Of a DNA stretch of 64,000 nt, positions 11,363 to 63,822 are shown one piece after another. The notes below the pieces were generated by a model. That model made no database searches and was not told the origin of the DNA. It saw only the letters and a list, made by a program, of their open reading frames with translations. A program made the position numbers and the translations under genes. The stretch lies in NCBI GenBank assembly GCA_012295275.1, contig CM022670.1:24118001-24182000 (forward strand), given 5' to 3'. The stretch comes from Chrysomallon squamiferum (taxonomy: Eukaryota > Animalia > Mollusca). Position 1 is the first letter of the stretch; each line of letters starts with the position of its first letter.

Positions 11363-11926
11363 CACTGTTGTATACAATCAGTACAGTGAGACAGGATTGG
11401 TCAAACAGTAATAACTTGACTGATCTCAGTTTGTTAGTAAGACTGCTGTATACAATCAGTACAGTGAGACAGGATTGGTCAGTCAAACAGTAATAACTTG
11501 ACTGATCTCAGTTTGTTAGTAAGACTGCTGTATACAATCAGTACAGTGAGACAGGATTGGTCAAACAGTAATAACTTGACTAATACTCAGTTTGTTAGTA
11601 AGACTGCTGTATACAATCAGTACAGTGAGACAGGATTGGTCAAACAGTAATAACTTGACTAATACTCAATTTGTTAGTAAGACTGCTGTATACAATCAGT
11701 ACAGTGAGACAGGATTGGTCAAACAGTAATAACTTGACTAATACTCAATTTGTTAGTAAGACTGCTGTATACAATCAGTACAGTGAGACAGGATTGGTCA
11801 AACAATAATAACTTGACTAATACTCAATTTGTTAGTAAGACTGCTGTATACAATCAGTACAGTGAGACAGGATTGGTCAAACAATAATAACTTGACTGAT
11901 CTCAGTTTGTTAGTAAGACTGCTGTA
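11363..11926. repeat. 78-82 bp tandem repeat, 7 near-identical units
   Basis: TATACAATCAGTACAGTGAGACAGGATTGGTC starts at 11371, 11449, 11531, 11610, 11689, 11768 and 11847. No unique spacers. Confidence 0.97.
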
Positions 11927-31923: not shown

Positions 31924-33105
31924 TTAACCTAAAAAATCCCTCACAACAAGAACATTAGTTTAGCTTCCATGTCCTCTCGGAATGAATTGAAATTTTCTTT
32001 ATTCAAATGTGGCTTCAATTTGCTTCAAACAGTTATGACCATGCACCATGCTGCTGCTGAAGAGTTTTTCCTTGGAGACGGCCACCAAATCTTATAGTCG
32101 CTCTCATCACACTGGCATTGTTCGCCATCAGAACACACTGGGCTCTGTCTTGAGACAGTTCCCAATCTACATAGTCGTGTAAAGCACAACATTTGTCAGA
32201 ATCTCACTGGCCATAATTTGATTGTGTAGGATGGAGTGGTCTAATGCAAATTAACATGTTTTCTGCTTACTGTGTTATTGCTATGCCTGTCACTTGGACC
32301 AAGTTGATTCTAATATATCAGATTTGTGCCAAAGATGTTTGCAGATGAGTTTTTTTGTTTTTTTTTTTTTTTTTTGCCAGGCTTTATGGGAAGCACATGC
32401 AGGATAAGAAATGTATTTACATAATGTTCATCAAGTTTTCTTTGTTCGCTTCTATATGGATATATTGTTCGGTAACCAAAATGTTTTTAAACATGATCTT
32501 GACTGTTATAAAATAATTTTTTCATTGGTAAATGAGGATATGTCTTTGCAGAGTTAAACAAAATGTATTTGTTTAAGGATAATATTATTATATTAAGAAA
32601 AAGTATTTTACTTCAAAATTCTTTTCTTTAATTGTTTTTTTTTTAACTTTATTTCTCGCTAACGGATAGATATACTTTATAAAGAAAGGTTTATTTCTTG
32701 TCAATAAACTGGTAAGTTAATTATATTAAATTTAAATTTACTGGGTTTTTATATATAAAATAAACAACATTTATAAAAAAAAAGAATTATATTGAAATTA
32801 AACATTTTAAAGTAAGAAAACAGAAAAAATTAATTCAAATTGCGAATTCATCACTGGTTTGCATTCTAGCTACCTTAGAATTTTTCTTGGCGTTTTTTTT
32901 TTTTTACACCTTCTTCTTCCACTGAATGGTAGATAACTTGAATTTGGAAACATTTGATTCCTGTGAATGTTTTGCTACTTCTTTCCTGGCAATATGATGA
33001 CATTAACGGTGGTGTACAAACAGGATCAGACATCACCACTTGGAAACATTCTGTCGCTGCTGTTGTTGTTTCTTTGTAACGATGTGGATTACGTGCTGTC
33101 TGTAA

Positions 33106-33215
33106 ATGGGTAACCGGCACTCTAAGAGTAACTGTGGTGTCAAGTGGTGTGCATGTTTTCGGTGTCACCCTCGACAACATCGTGCACACCCAGAGGAGCT
33201 TGTCAATGTCCACAG
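33106..33215 (+). CDS. Candidate alternative first coding exon of the FRMPD4-like gene: MGNRHSKSNCGVKWCACFRCHPRQHRAHPEELVNVH(S)
   Basis: ATG at 33106 directly preceded by in-frame TAA. 36 open codons + AG, then CAG|GTATTT donor, phase 2, matching the exon at 39396. Locally GC/CpG-richer sequence that drops to T-rich intron right after the donor. Confidence 0.7.
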
Positions 33216-33854
33216 GTATTTTTTTATTTTTTATTTTAAAAAAACCAAATGTTTTTCATTTTGATTCCACTTACGTTAACAGTTTAAACATTTTTTTCAT
33301 TCTCTAAATAAAATTATTATTTTGAAAAAAAGTTCCTTGAAAATTAGATTGTATTCATATATAATCTCACAACATTCAGTTTTAAGCTGGAATTTACTTT
33401 AAAAAATTGAATGTCTCATATAACAGCTATTACCTCTTAACAAATTTTGAGTACAAAAATGTTATTAATCTCTTTTAAAAAAAAAGAAAAAAAAGACATT
33501 ATCACTGCTTTTATTTTTTTTCATATGTGACTATTCAGATATTTTAATTGTTTGTTATTGTGAAATTAAAATTTTACATATAAATGGATAAATAAATAAA
33601 GGACAAAACAAAGCAAAATAAATAAGTAAATAAAAATTAAAAGATCTTTAAAATGTTAAAGATGCTTTGGTAATAATTATTAAATAAATGAAATAACTGC
33701 ACATGAAGAAAAGTTGTTTCTTTATCTTTTAAATGAATACAAACTTTTGTTGATACTGTTTATTTATAAATATTTTTTTGAAATATAATAATTAATACAT
33801 TACACTTTCAAAGTAAAAAATATATGCATACAAATAGGTCAATTACCAACACAA

Positions 33855-34560
33855 GTACTACTATTAAACCACCACTATTACTATTTTTACTACTATTACT
33901 ATTGCTTCTATTTCTATTACCACCACTATTTCACTATTTTTATTACTATTACTATTGCTTCTATTGCTATTACCACCATTATTTTACTATTTTTATTACT
34001 ATTACTATTGCTTCTATTTCTATTACCACCACTATTTCACTATTTTTATTACTATTACTATTGCTTCTATTGCTATTACCACTACTGTTACCTTTACTAT
34101 TGTTATTACTATTACTATATTGCTTTTATTACTATTACCACCACTATTACTATTTTACTATTACTATTACCACCACTATTACTATTTTTACTATTACTAT
34201 TACCATCACTATTACTATTTTACTATTACTATTTTTTCTATTACCACCACCGTTACTATTTTTACTACTATTACTACAGCTTCTGTTGCTATTACCAGCA
34301 CTATTACTTTTACTTCTATTGCTATTGCCACTACTATTACTATTACCACACTATTACTATTTTTACTATTACTATTACCACCACTATTACTTTTACTGTT
34401 TTAGTACTATTAATTTTACTTCTATTGCTATTGCCACCACTATTACTATTACCACAACTATTACTATTTTTACTATTACGACCACTATTATTATTTTTAC
34501 TACTATTACTATTACCTGCACTATTATTTTTTACCACTTCTATTCCTAATACTACCACTA
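33855..34560. repeat. Complex trinucleotide-derived low-complexity tract (ACT/ATT/ACC) with higher-order blocks
   Basis: Recurrent CCACCACTATT..ACTATTTTTATTACTATTACTATTGCTTCTATT blocks. Produces the T/I/L/Y homopolymer pseudo-ORFs. Confidence 0.92.
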
Positions 34561-38667: not shown

Positions 38668-39399
38668 GACTACTTTTTATATTTGTGTTTATCAGCTGCC
38701 ATTTTTGTATTTGTATATTTCAGCCACTGTTTTTATATTTGTGTATTTCAGCCACTGTTTTTATATTTGTATATTTCAGCTGCCATTCTTATATTTGTAT
38801 ATTTCAGCCACTGTTTTTATATTTGTATATTTCAGCCACTGTTTTTATATTTGTGTATTTCAGCTGCCATTCTTATATTTGTGTATTTCAGCTGCCATTT
38901 TTATATTTGTATATTTCAGCCACTGTTTTTATATTTGTATATTTCAGCCACTGTTTTTATATTTGTGTATTTCAGCTGCCATTTTTATATTTGTGTATTT
39001 CAGATACCATTTTTATAATTGTGTTTATCAGCCACTGTTGTTATATTTGTGTATTTCAGCCACTGTTTTTATATTTGTGTATTTAGCCACCATTTTTTAT
39101 ATTTGTGTATTTCAGCCATTGTTTTTATATTTGTGTATTTCAGCCACTGTTTTTATATTTGTGTATTTCAGATACCATTTTTATAATTGTGTTTATCAGC
39201 CATTGTTTTTATATTTGTGTATTTCAGCCATTGTTTTTATATTTGTGTATTTCAGCCACTGTCTTTATATTTGTGTATTTCAGCTGCCATTCTTATATTT
39301 GTATTTATCGGCCACTGTTTTTATATTTGTGTATTTCAGCCACCGTTTTTATATTTGTGTATTTCAGCCACTGTTTTTATATTTGTGTATTTCAGCCAC
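38668..39399 (+). repeat. 28-bp minisatellite (~26 units, consensus CCACTGTTTTTATATTTGTGTATTTCAG) whose last unit is the functional 3' splice site
   Basis: AG ends recur at 38695, 38723, 38751 ... 39339, 39367, 39395 (28-nt period, one 27/29 pair). Variant heads CCACTG, CTGCCA, ATACCA, CCATTG. Confidence 0.97.
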
Positions 39400-39512
39400 A
39401 AGAATCAGATAACGTCATGGCTTCCTCCTCGAGACAGCTGGGACTCAGACATAGGACTTCCGTACGGGTGGGAGACAGGCATCGACAAGAACGGAAAACC
39501 ATACTACATCAA
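39396..39512 (+). CDS. FRMPD4: FRMPD4/Preso-like gene, 117-nt coding exon: C-terminal part of a first WW module plus N-terminal part of the next WW domain (HKNQITSWLPPRDSWDSDIGLPYGWETGIDKNGKPYYIN)
   Basis: Acceptor TTTCAG ends 39395, donor AA|GTAAGT at 39513, phase 2-2. WW signature LPYGWE...GKPYYIN. Resembles human FRMPD4 [39 protein letters not shown] (recalled from memory, not searched). Confidence 0.93.
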
Positions 39513-42500
39513 GTAAGTCAAAGTGGAAAACACTATTTTTTAGTTTTTTTTTTTTTTTTTTTTCTTTAACCAAACTTCATGATACTAAAATACAGAATTA
39601 TTTTTAAAATAAAAAATTGAAGTCATATGTATATTTATTAATAAATGATTTCACATACATGCATGGATATATATGCCCAAAATACATTCAGTGATATTTT
39701 TGTTTTAAAGTTATTAATTTATATTCCAATTTATTGGTTATTTATTTGACAGTTTCCTTTCTCTCTCAGTGTGTTTGTCTGTGTGTGTGTGTGTGTGTGT
39801 TTGTGTGTTCCACACAATTTGCCAATCTACACTGTCTTATGATTGTGCTGTGCATTCTGGCAAATCAGTTACCACTTACTATTGACCTATTCTGAAAATG
39901 TTCTTGTTTAATAAATATTTTAGAAATTTTCTGGCCAATATGATCAAATCTTTTGATTTGTATTACTAATATTAATACTAACAGTAATAACAACTCATTA
40001 AAAAGACAGAGTGGATCAAATTTGCACAGTGATAAAATATTTTAAAAATATTAATAAATCGGATGATGTTTGCACATCAGTAGACTAAATCATCAGGTTA
40101 CAGATTGAAAATATATTCTTACCTAAGGGCAACACTTTTTTATTGGTTGGAACTCACCCTCCTCACCCTTTTTAGAAGAAAAAGCCAGAAGGAAATAAAA
40201 TTTACTTCTTCTCGTCAAACAAGTGTAAAATGAAGATTACTTTTTGATGACCTGAACTTACTGTAAACATTGAAAACATCAAATTAGTGCATTTGGGTGA
40301 GGAACGATTTGCAGTTTTATCTTTAACCTTCTACACATTTTCTGTTGCATGTTACACCATTGGCAGCACATAATTTTGAAGTAAAATATATAGGAAATAC
40401 CTGAATTTTCAAACTCCTTCAATTTGTAATCAAATATAAAAAAGTATGGCCTAAAGTACATTGGCCTATATATAAATTGAATACAAACACATTAAATGTT
40501 TAAAATAAAGGGGATTCAGTGATAATATTGTAGGATATAACTAAATAAACAAAGTGAATTTAAAAATAAAAATAATAATAATATTAATAATAATAATTTT
40601 TAAAACATTAAATTTAATTAAGCTTGGCATTCCATTTGACACTATTGTAGATACTTTCAAAACTGGAGAATGAAATGTTACCTGCAGTTGTTCCAGTAGT
40701 TAGGTCTAGGATGTTAATGGTACATGCCAAGTCCACATTGCAAGTGTCTTATATGATTTCAGTATTGTTGTGCTATCATTATATGTATTCATACATATAC
40801 ATATATACATGAACATGTTGTGTTTGAAATAGTAATTCAAATATTTCTTATAATCTCAAAAGAAAATAATAAATTATTTATATAAATGAAAGAATGAGAA
40901 TAAATATGACTGACATTTCATTACAGATGAAATATTATTTAAAAAATTAATCTATTTTTTTAAACAAATCAAACAAAAATAAAAGCAAATTGTAATAATT
41001 GAATAATTATTAACCTAGCTGTGAAAAATAATGCAGTCTTTTTTCAGTTAGGTCAGAATTTGCCTGCCACTGTACATTAATAAAAAATAGTTTCAGAATT
41101 GACACTTTCTGTAATGAAATGATTGGAGGCTAAATATCCAGAACCTTTGGTACATTGCAGTTGTAATCATTTTCATTTTAAGCTATTTAAGAGTTATTTT
41201 TTAATGTTTCTAAACAACAGTGGTCACTGACAGGGAGATGTGTATACATCATTAATGGGTTTTTTTCAGGAATGTAAAATGGTGAAAAGGAAATTATTTA
41301 ATTTGTAAATAAAAAAGAACACAAATAATTAATGGTTTTTTATGAATGTGGCACAAATCACAACAACAATATCTGTCTGTCTCTTGTTATCTATTTACAT
41401 ATCTGTCTGTCTTTCTATCAATCTGTCTATCTACAAACAAATGAACACACAAAAACACACACACAAACAAATAAAATAATCACACTGCACACATCACATA
41501 CATACATATCATATGTATATATATATATATTTTTTTTTTTCTAGTATTTTTTAATAGAAAAAGACTATAAAACAAAAACTATCTATAACACAACAGAAGA
41601 CTTTGATGAGTGGCTTCACTGGAAAAAGACATTTATCAAGAAATATGTTTTGTTATTCTCTACACTAAAAATAAAAGCACCGACACAAAAAGGATGCTAA
41701 TGTTACGAGACACAAAAATGATCAAAGAGAGACAGAACGACATATCTGTGATAATTTTATCATTATATTTATTGATTGTGATGGGAAGTGATGTGGACAG
41801 AAAAATAATCACAATAACCTAATGATCTGTTAATAAGAATTCAAATGGATCTGTCTTGGGTTTCCGTTTTCAAAGCACAGTTCTGTATTTGCCTTGAAGC
41901 GCATACCACATCAACTTGCATAGATATTAACTGATGACAAATTAAATGCATGGATGCTTATGTAAGTGATATGTAAAACTAATGACCAGATAGATGAATG
42001 TGTGGTTGGAGCAATATCAGACAAGTAGATGGTTTCAAAAAGTACCAAAATATGTTAGTTTTCAGTGGAAAGAATTAAAGTTAAAGACATTAATTACAGA
42101 TTCCGAATTAACAAACATTTTCACAGTTATTTTAAATAAGAGGTGTTCTCTCCTGAATGTGATTCATTATTATGCTTCTTGCTTATTTTTGTTTCTTAGT
42201 TTCGGCTGAAATTCAATTTATAATATTTGTGTGTGTATGTTTATTTATTTTAATTTTTTTTTTTAATAACAGCTGTTCAATATTCAGCTTAATAGACTCA
42301 GGTTTAAGTTACAACAGCGTTTAAAAAAATATCAAAGAAGTTCTGAAAGGTCGCTTTGAAATGAAATCTGCATTTTTCCAGCAATAATCATGACTGTGGT
42401 AATCTCAGGAGACGATGTCTGCAGCAGAGAAGTATTGATTTGTGACAGCTTTTCAATTTAACAATTGTCACATTTGTAGTTTCCTCCATTTTAATTGTTT

Positions 42501-45243
42501 TTATTAGCCAAAAGTGGCACTTGGCCTTTTTATTTCAATATTTTCAGAAAAGGAAACAAAATGAGAATGTATTAATAATGAGCACTGATAACTTGGGTAC
42601 AAATAATTTCACTTTTTAAAAAACATTTAAATTTAAAAAAAAAAAAAACAACAGTTGATGAGAAGAAAAAGAGAATTTTAAACTGCCCCTATCCATAAAT
42701 ACAGAATTATTTTCTAATTTATATATATATATATTTTTGTATTATTTTCTTCTTTTTTTAATTTCTTTTTCGACCAATTTCTGTGTTCAGATCTTTTAAT
42801 TTATAAAAAATCCTTTGGAACTAAATGTTTTGAAGATTTCATCTTCTTGATGTTTCCATGCCAATTCTTTAACAAGTCTGCAATATATTGAGAATGATCA
42901 ACTCATAATGGATGTTTAAACTGACATGAAATTTACATTGTTATATTTTAGTTTAAATATATATATATAAAATACAAAAAAAAAAAAGAAAAAAAAAAGA
43001 CACTGGTTACAGTCTAGCTCCTAAAATAAATTAAATCCTGAAATAGCATTTTCCTTAAATTGCAAATCCAGAAAAAGAAATTCATTTAGTGATAAACAGA
43101 CTTCATTTGTTGTTTGCTATAATATCAGTTCATATAAATATTAAAATCTTGATGCAAAATATATATTATTTAACATTTGTTAAAAAAAAAAAAAAAAAAA
43201 ATAAATTAAATGAGGCATAAATTATTTATTTAATAATCTTAAACATTATTAAGTTAGAAGCATCTCAAAATGTCTTTATTCTTTCTGGTAAACAGCAAAA
43301 ATATTTATTGATATTTCTTTAACAAAGTTTAAACAGTTTGAACATTGGATAGAAGTAAAATATACATCAATCAGAAATTAATATATCGGGCAAAGATTAT
43401 TTATTTTAATAATCAAATTAGCTGCATGTTAAGTAAAAATTTTATAAAAAAAAGATACATTCTTCAGTGTTAAAAAAAATGTATATATCACAAATTTTTT
43501 AAAACATTTTTAATCCAGCTTCTTGCTAGGTAAGGAGCATGGACATATTTATCTTGAATGTGTTCAAAATGTGACTTAGAGGACACTTAGTTTATTAAGA
43601 TAAATGTCACTTTGCTCTCAGTGCTTTGACTTTTATGAAAACTAAATGTCACAATGTCACAGTGTCACAGTATTTCTGACATTTCTGAACACACGTCTGA
43701 AAAAATTTTCTTTTATTAGATTAATTAGAAGACTTCAGAAACAAAAAGTCACAGAAAGTTCTTTCCAGCAGCACATCTTAATGAGTCGCGGCTTTTTTTT
43801 TCACTTTATTTGTCAGGATTTAAACAGTGATTTATTTCCTAGTGTGCATTTCCATTTTTTTTTTTTTTTTTTTTATAAAGAGACTTTTTGTTTTAAACTT
43901 TTAATAAGTTTGTAAACTTAAAATGTCTTTTTAAAAATTCAGTAGACGTACATCATGTTTATTCAGTTACTTTGACTGACATTTGAATTAAGTCTTTATT
44001 TTTAAAAATTTTTAAATTTAATAAAAGAAAATATTATTAATCTTGAAATTTTTTTTTTGATGATTCTTCTATCAAGTTTCAAATTAAAACTTAATATTTT
44101 TTTTTGTACTTTATAAATAAAAAACAGCTAAAAACCAAGCCAGTAATTTATTATAGTGTTCTTTACATGAATGTTCATTATAATATATATTTTTTTAAAA
44201 GCACTTCATTTAAAGTCTGTATCAAATGCAAACTATTTTGTTATATTTATGAGGCTGTTTAAAAGATAGGACGCAAAAATAATAAGTTACAAACGACAGT
44301 GACTGATAACCTGTATCACAGTAATGAATTAAAAATGGCTGATGTGAAAAGCATTTTCCATTATGAACATTATGTATCATCTGTGGATGAGGTTTCTTGT
44401 CATCTCACTGGTTTCGGGATTCTGTTGCACAAATTGTTATTACAGTTTCAATCAAAACAATCACATTAACACTTCTGCTCGACAGATTTGTCACAGCTGG
44501 TTGGCAAGAATAAATGAACAGCTGAATGGACAGATGAAATGAATATATCATTCAGAAATGAAAAGAGTTAAAAAAAAAAAAAAAAAAAATCTTGAATCAA
44601 ATAATATTTAACTAACACCTTGTGAAATCTTTGATCTCAAAATTGTATTTTATTTTAATCCAGAATGTTAGAATTAGTTGACATTAATGTGCTGGTCTTT
44701 TAAAAAATAACCAAAAATAGAATAAAAAAAATATAGAAGGTACTCATAGTATTTGAGATAGTTTATCAGATTATCATCCATTTTAATCACCACTGTGTAA
44801 CTGACAGTGTTTTGCTATTATTAGAAAAAAATGCCATTTTAAACTTTCAAGCTCCCCAAGTCTATTCATCAAGGACATGACAGGTTGACTCTACCCTGGA
44901 CTGAAAAGAAGAAGAAACAAACCTAGTAGACAAGAACAATAAAACTACAATGTTAATATGTATAATCTAGAGTACCTTTCTGACTCTGGGAAGGAACATT
45001 TGGATGTGGGTGATTCCTAACCACTAATCTGAAAGTGTTGCAGTGAAGTGTTGGCAAAAGGTTTCCTTTAGCATATCATCTTTAATTAATACATTTTGAC
45101 AACTGTATCCCATTCATTTTAAAATGTGTTATAATATAATAAACCAAATAATCATTTTTAAAAAAAAAAAATTATCACCTCCATCACATAGTTGTCACTG
45201 AATACTGAAAATTCTTGTTTTTAAACATTTCGTTTTCTTGCAG

Positions 45244-45404
45244 CCATGTTGACAAGTACACGACCCGAGAGGACCCACGCCATGATCCAGATTATGTGGA
45301 GCCCCCAAAACCCAGGGATGTGGAGCTGATCCGCGATCCTGACAAAGGTTTTGGATTTGTTGCTGGCAGTGAGAAACCTGTTGTTGTCCGTTTTGTTACT
45401 GATG
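45244..45404 (+). CDS. FRMPD4: FRMPD4/Preso-like gene, 161-nt exon: end of WW domain and first half of PDZ domain (HVDKYTTREDPRHDPDYVEPPKPRDVELIRDPDKGFGFVAGSEKPVVVRFVTD)
   Basis: Pyrimidine tract + TTGCAG acceptor ending 45243, donor G|GTGAGT at 45405, phase 2-1. Joins the previous exon in frame (AA+C = Asn). GFGFVAGSEKPVVVR is the FRMPD-family PDZ carboxylate-binding loop and following strands. Confidence 0.95.
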
Positions 45405-45627
45405 GTGAGTTTTTGCTTTGAGTACTTTGTCTTCAAGAACTGTTGTGTTATGTCTTTCAGGAACGACAAACAATATGCTAAAATGAACTACAATAAAATT
45501 TTATTTTACTCCTGTAAGGATAATGTTGCTATGGGCATGCTATATAGTTTATATTTGTTTTGTTAGATAGATTTTTTGTAATTCTATAAATTTTGTGTGA
45601 CATTGGATTTATTATTGTGAAGTCTTC

Positions 45628-60127: not shown

Positions 60128-60268
<141 letters not shown>

Positions 60269-62349: not shown

Positions 62350-63165
62350 TTATACACTCTCATTACATTATTGAATTTTTTGTACAGTCATTACATCAAT
62401 ACTTTACTTGTACACTGACACTTCATCAATACTTTGTCTACTGACATTACATTATTGAATTTTTTGTACAGTCATTACATCAATACTTTACTTGTACACT
62501 GACACTTCATCAGTACTTTGTCTACTGACATTACATCATTGCTTTAACTGTACACAGACATTACATCAATACTTTACTTATATCCTGATATTACATCATT
62601 ACCTTTCCTGTATCCTGACACTACATCATTACTTTACTTGTCTACTGTCATTACATTATTTATTTACTTGTATACAGACATCACATCAGTATTTTACCTG
62701 TATCCTGTCACTATATCATTACTTTACTTGCATCCTGTCACTATATCATTACTTTAGCTGTATCCTGTCACTATATCATTTCTTTACTTGTATCCTGTCA
62801 CTACATCATTTCTTTACTTGTATCCTGCCACTATATCATTACTTTGCTTGTATCCTGCCACTTTACTTTGTATCCTGTCCATATCATTTCTATATCCTGT
62901 CATTACTTTGCTTGTATCCTGCCACTACATCATTACTTTATGTGTCCACTCTCATTACATCATTTCTTAACTTACATCATTGTCCAATTTGTACATTTGC
63001 ATCATGTTATTACTTTACTTGTGCACTGACATTACATCATTGTTTTATTTGCACATTTTCATTGTTATTACTTTACTGGTACACTGACATTACATCATTG
63101 TTTTATTTTTACACTTTCATTGTTACTACTTTACTGGTACACTGACATTACATTTTTGTTAGTAC
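62350..63165. repeat. Diverged ~30-bp minisatellite (TATCCTGTCACTATATCATTACTTTACTTG / TACACTGACATTACATCATTG.. variants)
   Basis: 30-nt periodicity clearest at 62700-62860, with more diverged flanking units. Source of the H/Y/C/L-rich pseudo-ORFs. Boundaries approximate. Confidence 0.9.
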
Positions 63166-63221: not shown

Positions 63222-63822
63222 ACACCATTGTTTGATTTGTACACTGTTATTACATCATCGTTTGATTTGCACACTAGCATTACACCATTGTTTGATATAT
63301 ACACTATCATTACACCATTGTTTGATATATACACTATCATTACACCATTGTCTGATTTGTACACTATCATTACACCATTGTTTGATTTGAACACTATCAT
63401 TACACCATTGTTGATTTGTACACTATCATTACACCATTGTTTGATATGTACACTATCATTACACCATTGTTTGATTTGAACACTATCATTACACCATTGT
63501 TGATTTGTACACTTTCATTACACCATTGTCTGATTTTACACTATCATTACACCATTGTTTGATTTGAACACTATCATTACACCATTGTTGATATGTACAC
63601 TATCATTACACCATTGTCTGATTTTACACTATCATTACACCATTGTTTGATTTGAACACTATCATTACACCATTGTTAATTTGAACACTATCATTACACC
63701 ATTGTTTAATTTGTACACTATCATTACACCATTGTTGATTTGTACACTTTCATTACACCATTGTTTGATTTGAACTCTATGATCACACCAATGTTTGATT
63801 TGTACACTACGATTAAACCATT
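63222..63822. repeat. 29-30 bp minisatellite (ACACTATCATTACACCATTGTTTGATTTGT), ~20 units
   Basis: Directly visible homogeneous tandem units with 1-nt length variants. Confidence 0.96.

What the first reader, a model, noticed from the sequence alone, without database searches (positions are those of the whole stretch)
38668..39399. A minisatellite made of the gene's own 3' splice site: 24 tandem decoy acceptors in front of the WW exon
Seen: the 28-bp unit is the T-rich tract + TTTCAG acceptor + the first exon bases (CCAC). There are 26 unit ends from 38695 to 39395, 25 carry AG, and only the last leads directly into HKNQITSW. Established: 3' splice-site choice usually favours the first AG after the branch point, and real acceptors normally have an upstream AG-exclusion zone; here the nearest near-identical AG is only 28 nt upstream. 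Inference: either strong exon definition from the GTAAGT donor picks the last copy, or the array yields a ladder of 28n-nt extended exons, most of them frameshifted and likely NMD targets. Repeat copy number could then act as a heritable dial on FRMPD4 output.
Basis: partly seen in the sequence, partly recalled or inferred. Interest (0 to 1): 0.85.

Follow-up and report, generated by a model that had tools for sequence, protein, structure and literature searches.

The report
Silent repeated splice acceptor ("mirage")
A 28-base piece spanning the end of an intron and the first bases of the next exon is repeated 26 times in a scaffold-protein gene of what is likely a snail, but the assembled transcripts join only to the last, true copy, so it is likely a harmless repeat of a kind already described in lancelets.

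Summary
The array is real: 28 bp x 25.9 at 38674-39399, 26 unit ends, 25 with AG, the last being the acceptor of a 117-nt WW exon of a mollusc FRMPD (WW-PDZ-FERM) gene; closest named hit Gigantopelta aegis. Contigs of 3 of 3 RNA runs (one study) join the upstream exon in frame to the last AG only; no extended or skipped form appears, though contigs hide rare or NMD-degraded forms. Contigs from other runs show both array ends, so it is no assembly artefact. The premise of a violated AG-exclusion zone fails: 26 nt is ordinary (29 and 50 nt at the gene's other acceptors; about 21% of human introns have an AG at -12 to -25). Such boundary-spanning minisatellites are in print as amphioxus 'mirages', which leave splicing intact, with donor-side human cases (F7, CBS, ABCA7). 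This scan noted the same kind before on other DNA. The copy-number dial is untested and unlikely. New member of a known kind; low interest.

The parts
38674..39399 (+). 28-bp minisatellite, 25.9 copies; unit = last 24 intron bases (T-rich tract, TTTCAG) + first 4 exon bases; 26 unit ends, 25 with AG
   Evidence: both ends seen in contigs of other runs
39376..39395 (+). authentic 3' splice site (last unit); the only acceptor used in RNA contigs
   Evidence: contigs of X1, X3, X4 run unbroken from the upstream exon into 39396
39396..39512 (+). FRMPD exon, 117 nt, phase 2-2; end of WW1 and start of WW2
   Evidence: joint 39512-45244 (GT..AG) in 3 of 3 RNA runs
39513..39518 (+). GTAAGT donor of the WW exon
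39284..39311 (+). the one unit without AG (ends GG); it is the nearest in-frame, stop-free position (+84 nt)
39200..39227 (+). the only upstream AG that would give an in-frame, stop-free extension (+168 nt, 56 hydrophobic residues)
33106..33215 (+). predicted alternative first coding exon (MGN...), phase-2 donor at 33216, in frame with 39396; would share the same acceptor
   Evidence: tblastn with N-termini of Littorina, Babylonia and Argonauta hits; covered by X2, not by RNA contigs
45244..45404 (+). next exon (end of WW2, start of PDZ); ordinary acceptor, 50-nt AG-free zone
60165..60267 (+). PDZ exon; ordinary acceptor, 29-nt AG-free zone
   Evidence: loose ends at 45407 in X1, X3, X4 read into it

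Best explanation
This is a minisatellite whose 28-base unit spans the intron-exon border of a FRMPD WW exon; assembled transcripts use only the last copy, and the 24 upstream AG copies are likely silent pseudo-sites that arose as a by-product of repeat instability and are removed with the intron. Shown: the anatomy, the junction at 39395/39396, the normal AG-free zone. Inferred: a slippage or unequal-crossover duplication of -24..+4 seeded the array; every copy offers the same core signal (candidate branch A near -17, T-rich tract, CAG), so core sequence cannot choose; the last copy wins because it alone is followed by real exon sequence (52% GC, 20% T over 50 nt, against 24-34% GC and 36-54% T after the four upstream copies measured) and lies closest to the strong donor (exon definition, exonic enhancers). 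A leak of a few percent to the nearest one or two copies, cleared by NMD, is likely and is part of this reading.
For:: in X1, X3 and X4 one contig each (461, 963, 979 nt; depth 29.8, 5.9, 7.4) has a loose end reading AKLSPEGRIY and then exactly 8 letters (Y, V/I, two bases of N by homology with P0002) before 39396. All RNA records in the bin 39312-39521 are accounted for by hand arithmetic (20.1 of 20.2, 5.31 of 5.31, 4.40 of 4.4); none joins the upstream exon to an inner unit. X1 kept a two-allele bubble at depth 9 and 14.9, so alternatives of that size survive assembly. The His at the exon start is invariant in 5 of 5 aligned sequences, so CCAC is old exon sequence copied into the repeat. 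The window has 5 long minisatellites (3393 of 64000 bp); crude chance that one end falls within 10 nt of one of 7 splice sites is 0.023 per window. Amphioxus mirages of the same design do not disturb splicing (PMC3087553, PMC3902484, passages). With duplicated beta-globin 3' sites carrying 14-205 nt of exon, splicing went only to the distal site, though very inefficiently (PMC5389562, passages).
Against: The RNA evidence is contigs, from one study, at low depth, with NMD intact; rare or degraded forms cannot show. Only the last three units were laid, so short contigs fitting distant units may have been missed. X3 holds two low-depth contigs inside the array (depth 2 and 2.6); one includes intron flank (unspliced RNA or DNA), the other (39316-39399) could come from an extended exon. 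The mechanism of choice (exon definition/enhancers) was not tested. The second donor (33216) could not be tested because that exon has no RNA cover. The one AG-less unit sits at the nearest in-frame position, which may hint at selection (2 of 25 by chance, post hoc).
Confidence: 0.8

Rival explanations
1. One reading: upstream AGs take a substantial share of splicing, give 28n-nt extended exons that NMD destroys, and more copies mean less FRMPD protein.
For: 23 of 24 upstream AGs would give premature stops, so steady-state RNA would hide them; 8 of 26 sites are identical over -20..+3; in human 6-16 and CBS the two nearest donor pseudo-sites are used (PMC1557585 introduction).
Against: No extended form in 3 of 3 RNA runs. 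In known cases only the nearest one or two pseudo-sites are used, so added distant copies should not matter. In ABCA7 the frameshifting forms were given as 14% and 2%, one-unit retention was NMD-sensitive and was not affected by VNTR length (PMC5954066 section 21).
Confidence: 0.07
2. Array length tunes skipping of the 117-nt exon, not extension. The exon is phase 2-2, so skipping would be in frame and would fuse the first half of WW1 to the second half of WW2, giving a one-WW protein.
For: Phases; ABCA7 precedent, where VNTR length raised in-frame skipping of the next exon 3- to 4-fold.
Against: No contig joins the upstream exon to 45244 in X1, X3 or X4; no data on length polymorphism.
Confidence: 0.06
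3. The upstream AGs are silent mainly because local RNA pairing hides them, not because of exon definition.
For: Predicted probability that the 5 nt ending at the AG are unpaired is 0.58 at the real site and lower at 24 of 25 upstream ends (0.33 and 0.05 at the two nearest).
Against: One upstream end (39086) scores 0.61; the 20-nt measure does not separate the sites (0.001 at the real one); prediction only, and the stems involved are tiny.
Confidence: 0.05
4. The array is an assembly artefact.
For: Copy number was not confirmed by long reads.
Against: 15 unit types among 25 units; both ends appear in contigs of other runs.
Confidence: 0.02

Closest known systems
Amphioxus 'mirage' minisatellites (Adh3, globins BflGb6/BflGb9, troponin C, PGBD5); PMC3087553 and PMC3902484, passages seen; the original Adh3 paper was not seen
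   Same: Tandem copies of the 3' end of an intron plus the 5' start of the next exon (BflGb6); unit within the reported 10-160 bp; most but not all copies keep the splice signal; normal mRNA.
   Different: Gastropod host; only 4 exon bases per unit; 26 copies against 3-6 in BflGb6; length instability not shown here.
Human donor-spanning minisatellites: F7 IVS7 (37 bp x 5-9), 6-16 intron 2 (25 pseudo-sites), CBS intron 13, LMNB2, PDGF; PMC1557585, abstract, introduction and passages seen
   Same: One border copied many times, 4 exon bases in the F7 unit as here, only the exon-adjacent site (or the next one or two) used.
   Different: 5' splice sites, mirror image; polymorphism and mechanism were tested there, not here.
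ABCA7 intron 18 VNTR (25 bp, contains the donor); PMC5954066, passages and section 21 seen
   Different: Donor side; unit retention did not follow length, while skipping of the next exon did; no such data here.
Experimental duplicated 3' splice sites in beta-globin; PMC5389562, passages seen
   Same: With identical acceptors, the one next to the complete exon was used.
   Different: Two artificial copies in vitro, inefficient splicing; here 25 natural copies.

Membership tests
Mirage (boundary-spanning minisatellite) | Head-to-tail minisatellite-like array | tested here: met
   28 bp x 25.9, score 1002
Mirage (boundary-spanning minisatellite) | Unit spans a real intron-exon border | tested here: met
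   24 intron + 4 exon bases; junction shown by RNA contigs; exon-start His invariant in 5 of 5
Mirage (boundary-spanning minisatellite) | Most but not all copies keep the splice signal | tested here: met
   25 of 26 keep AG
Mirage (boundary-spanning minisatellite) | Regular splicing is not disturbed | tested here: met
   3 of 3 RNA runs, one study, contig resolution only
Mirage (boundary-spanning minisatellite) | Length instability between alleles | tested here: inconclusive
Functional splice-site VNTR (ABCA7, CBS, 6-16 type) | Pseudo-sites are measurably used | tested here: inconclusive
   None seen in contigs, which drop rare forms
Functional splice-site VNTR (ABCA7, CBS, 6-16 type) | Allele length correlates with splicing or expression | not testable with these tools
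   No raw reads or genotyped individuals were offered
Recursive splice site (ratchet point; definition recalled) | AG directly followed by GT | tested here: not met
   0 of 26 unit ends are followed by GT
Acceptor with violated AG-exclusion zone / close tandem acceptors (NAGNAG type) | Competing AG between branch point and acceptor, or under about 12 nt away | tested here: not met
   26 nt between the AGs; 29 and 50 nt at the gene's other acceptors; PMC1431707 passages

The most novel reading that the evidence does not exclude
The array is a length-polymorphic tuner of FRMPD splicing in a mollusc: more acceptor copies draw splicing factors off the real site and raise either NMD-bound extensions or, more interestingly, in-frame skipping that turns a two-WW scaffold into a chimeric one-WW form; the loss of AG at the nearest in-frame copy (+84 nt) would be the mark of selection on this system.
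Probability: 0.08. Interest if true: 0.55.

Novelty: new member of a known kind. Interest (0 to 1): 0.12.

Why it matters
As it stands it adds one gastropod example to a described class and is a tidy natural substrate (25 near-identical acceptors, 28 nt apart) for asking how exon-side signals pick a 3' splice site. My searches found no mollusc mirage in print (open-access library only), but this scan has noted the same kind in other animals, so it appears to be a common by-product in repeat-rich genomes. It would matter more only if allele length were shown to change exon inclusion, and even that has a human precedent (ABCA7).

Tried and rejected
No whole genome is held, so the genome-wide frequency of such arrays could not be counted. 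A protein search with three translated units plus the exon (36-118 aa candidates) found nothing, so orthologous introns could not be read; this is no evidence of absence. The upstream WW1 exon is not in the window (tblastn); it is known only from loose ends. Laying the four runs on 31950-33850 gave no RNA cover of the alternative first exon, so the second donor was not tested; lack of cover is no proof of silence. Relation of the unit to the four other long minisatellites: 7 of 8 strand-wise tests were within the shuffled range; one (63222-63822, minus strand) reached 1 of 300, at a score that the plus strand gives by chance; not taken as kinship. RNA accessibility gave only a weak hint. Recursive splicing rejected (no AG-GT). 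Mukamel et al. 2023 (recalled as describing splice-linked VNTRs) is not held; I saw only one review's passage on CUL4A (PMC12776774). PMC10078293 (spl-TR catalogue) was seen as a search listing only. No supplementary files were read; the BflGb6 mirage alignment in the supplement of PMC3087553 may bear on how close the match is. No earlier scan notes exist for this genome or this sequence. No splice-site strength model was available.

Full report
Observation. The window holds a 28-bp tandem array at 38674-39399 (25.9 copies, 85% matches). It has 26 unit ends from 38695 to 39395; 25 end in AG and one (39311) in GG. The last end is followed by a 117-nt exon (39396-39512) that reads HKNQITSW...YYI and ends at a GTAAGT donor. 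The commonest unit (6 of 25 full units, 15 types in all) is the window's 39368-39395; 8 of 26 ends are identical over -20..+3. CCAC follows 14 of the 25 upstream ends.

The gene. The next exons lie at 45244-45404 and 60165-60267. Pfam gives a partial WW match for the first exon (below the curated cut-off) and PDZ for the third. A search with the middle exon returned 69 proteins, mostly mollusc WW-PDZ-FERM proteins named FRMPD4, FRMPD3 or uncharacterised; the best named hit is Gigantopelta aegis at 98%, with small differences in two exons. The host is thus likely a gastropod close to, but not the same as, that record. In homologues the exon completes one WW domain and starts a second. The exon with the first half of WW1 lies outside the window. 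A predicted alternative first exon (MGN..., 33106-33215, phase 2) lies 6.2 kb upstream and is in frame with 39396.

Is the array real? Four runs were offered, all as contigs: three RNA runs of one study and one run of unrecorded kind from another. Laid on 39312-45600, X2 has a contig over 39351-39525, i.e. the last 1.6 units running into the exon, and X3 has a contig made of 25 nt of the array's 5' flank plus three units, whose 7 differences from the last units are the number that the window's first units give. With 15 unit types, this rules against an assembly artefact. Copy number was not confirmed independently.

Which AG is used? In X1, X3 and X4 one contig each enters the stretch at 39388 with a loose end that translates as AKLSPEGRIY. 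In P0002 the matching residues are followed by Y, V and the first two bases of N before HK: eight bases, which is the distance 39388-39395 that the aligner absorbed by likeness to the intron end. So the junction is 39395/39396, in frame; use of the next AG would have carried the alignment 28 nt further. The same runs show the joint 39512-45244 (GT..AG) and loose ends reading into the 60165 exon. By hand arithmetic the listed records account for all RNA depth in the first bin (X1 20.1 of 20.2; X3 5.31 of 5.31; X4 4.40 of 4.4); all 4 X3 and both X4 records are listed, 7 of 10 for X1. No record joins the upstream exon to an inner unit or to 45244. Limits: one study, contig depth 30, 6 and 7, rare variants dropped, NMD active, only three units laid. 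X1 kept an allele bubble at depth 9 against 14.9, so a major alternative would probably have survived; a leak of a few percent would not. The two low-depth X3 contigs inside the array are not joined to any exon. The alternative first exon has DNA-like cover in X2 but no RNA cover, so its donor was not tested.

The premise. Scanning selects the first AG after the branch point in use (established knowledge; PMC1431707 passages), and each unit carries its own candidate branch A (near -17; inferred from the sequence, weak) and T-rich tract. The AG-free stretch before the real site is 26 nt; at the gene's other two acceptors it is 50 and 29 nt, against a median gap of 12 nt in the window's introns. 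In the human set of PMC1431707, 10,330 of 49,876 introns have an AG even closer, at -12 to -25. What needs explaining is the choice among equal modules, not a broken exclusion zone.

Mechanism. Core signals cannot choose, being the same. What differs is downstream: the 50 nt after the real AG are 52% GC and 20% T, those after four sampled upstream AGs 24-34% GC and 36-54% T, and the real AG is nearest to the donor. I infer that exon definition and exonic enhancers pick the last copy. In support, duplicated beta-globin acceptors with 14-205 nt of exon spliced only to the distal site in vitro, if weakly (PMC5389562 passages), and in donor-side minisatellites only the exon-adjacent site or the next one or two are used (PMC1557585). 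Predicted pairing may help: the 5 nt ending at the AG are unpaired with probability 0.58 at the real site and less at 24 of 25 others, but one scores 0.61 and the 20-nt measure shows nothing. If upstream AGs are used, 23 of 24 give premature stops and 1 (39227) stays open, so a small leak would cost little. The origin is most simply a slippage or unequal-crossover duplication of -24..+4; the His codon at the exon start is invariant in 5 of 5 aligned sequences, so the repeat copied the border, not the reverse. The window is rich in minisatellites (5 long arrays, 3393 bp), and the crude chance that one ends within 10 nt of a splice site is 0.023 per window, which over many windows makes such cases expected.

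One oddity. The only unit without AG is the nearest one that would give an in-frame, stop-free and so NMD-proof insertion (+84 nt, into WW1). Two of 25 upstream units have that property, so the coincidence has a chance of about 8% and was noticed after the fact. It is a hint to test, no more.

Comparison. Notes of this scan (50 findings with these words in at least 8 genomes, 8 shown) pointed to the term 'mirage'; I checked it in print. [quoted passage not shown] PMC3902484 (passage) adds troponin C and PGBD5. The array here meets four of five defining features; length instability is untested. The dial idea has a human precedent in ABCA7, where one-unit retention is NMD-sensitive but does not follow VNTR length, while skipping of the next exon does (PMC5954066 section 21). 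By analogy the more plausible dial here would be in-frame skipping of the phase 2-2 exon, giving a chimeric single WW domain; no contig shows it. Searches for a mollusc mirage found none in the open-access library.

Verdict. Real, correctly described, and a new gastropod member of a known kind; the transcripts use the authentic acceptor. Interest 0.12. The most novel reading not excluded (length-dependent skipping or leak) has a probability of about 0.08.

Noticed in passing
window 33106-33215 (+): Predicted alternative first coding exon of FRMPD, starting MGN with several Cys (possible lipid-anchored isoform, inferred); similar N-termini occur in Littorina, Babylonia, Argonauta and a spider hit. 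It would replace the first half of WW1. No RNA cover in the three runs.
   Followed up: partly
window 39396-39512: The exon is phase 2-2 and straddles two WW domains, so skipping would give an in-frame chimeric single WW domain; no such contig.
   Followed up: partly
window 39284-39311: The only AG-less unit is the nearest in-frame, stop-free position; about 8% by chance, post hoc.
   Followed up: partly
window 11364-11926, 33859-34560, 62360-63160, 63222-63822: Four more long intronic minisatellites (79 bp x 7; degenerate ACTATT-based; two families of about 30 bp); none lies at an exon border that I found. The 63222 array gave one marginal minus-strand likeness to the 28-bp unit (1 of 300 shuffles, 8 tests).
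   Followed up: partly
window 39829-45577: Run X2 differs from the window by about 3-4% in introns (21 letters in 721, 50 in 1143), which suggests high allelic or population diversity, or a close sister taxon.
   Followed up: no
window 45329 and 39447-39512: Exonic differences in RNA run X1 (a two-allele bubble with 0 and 3 differences; A to C at 45329), likely alleles.
   Followed up: no
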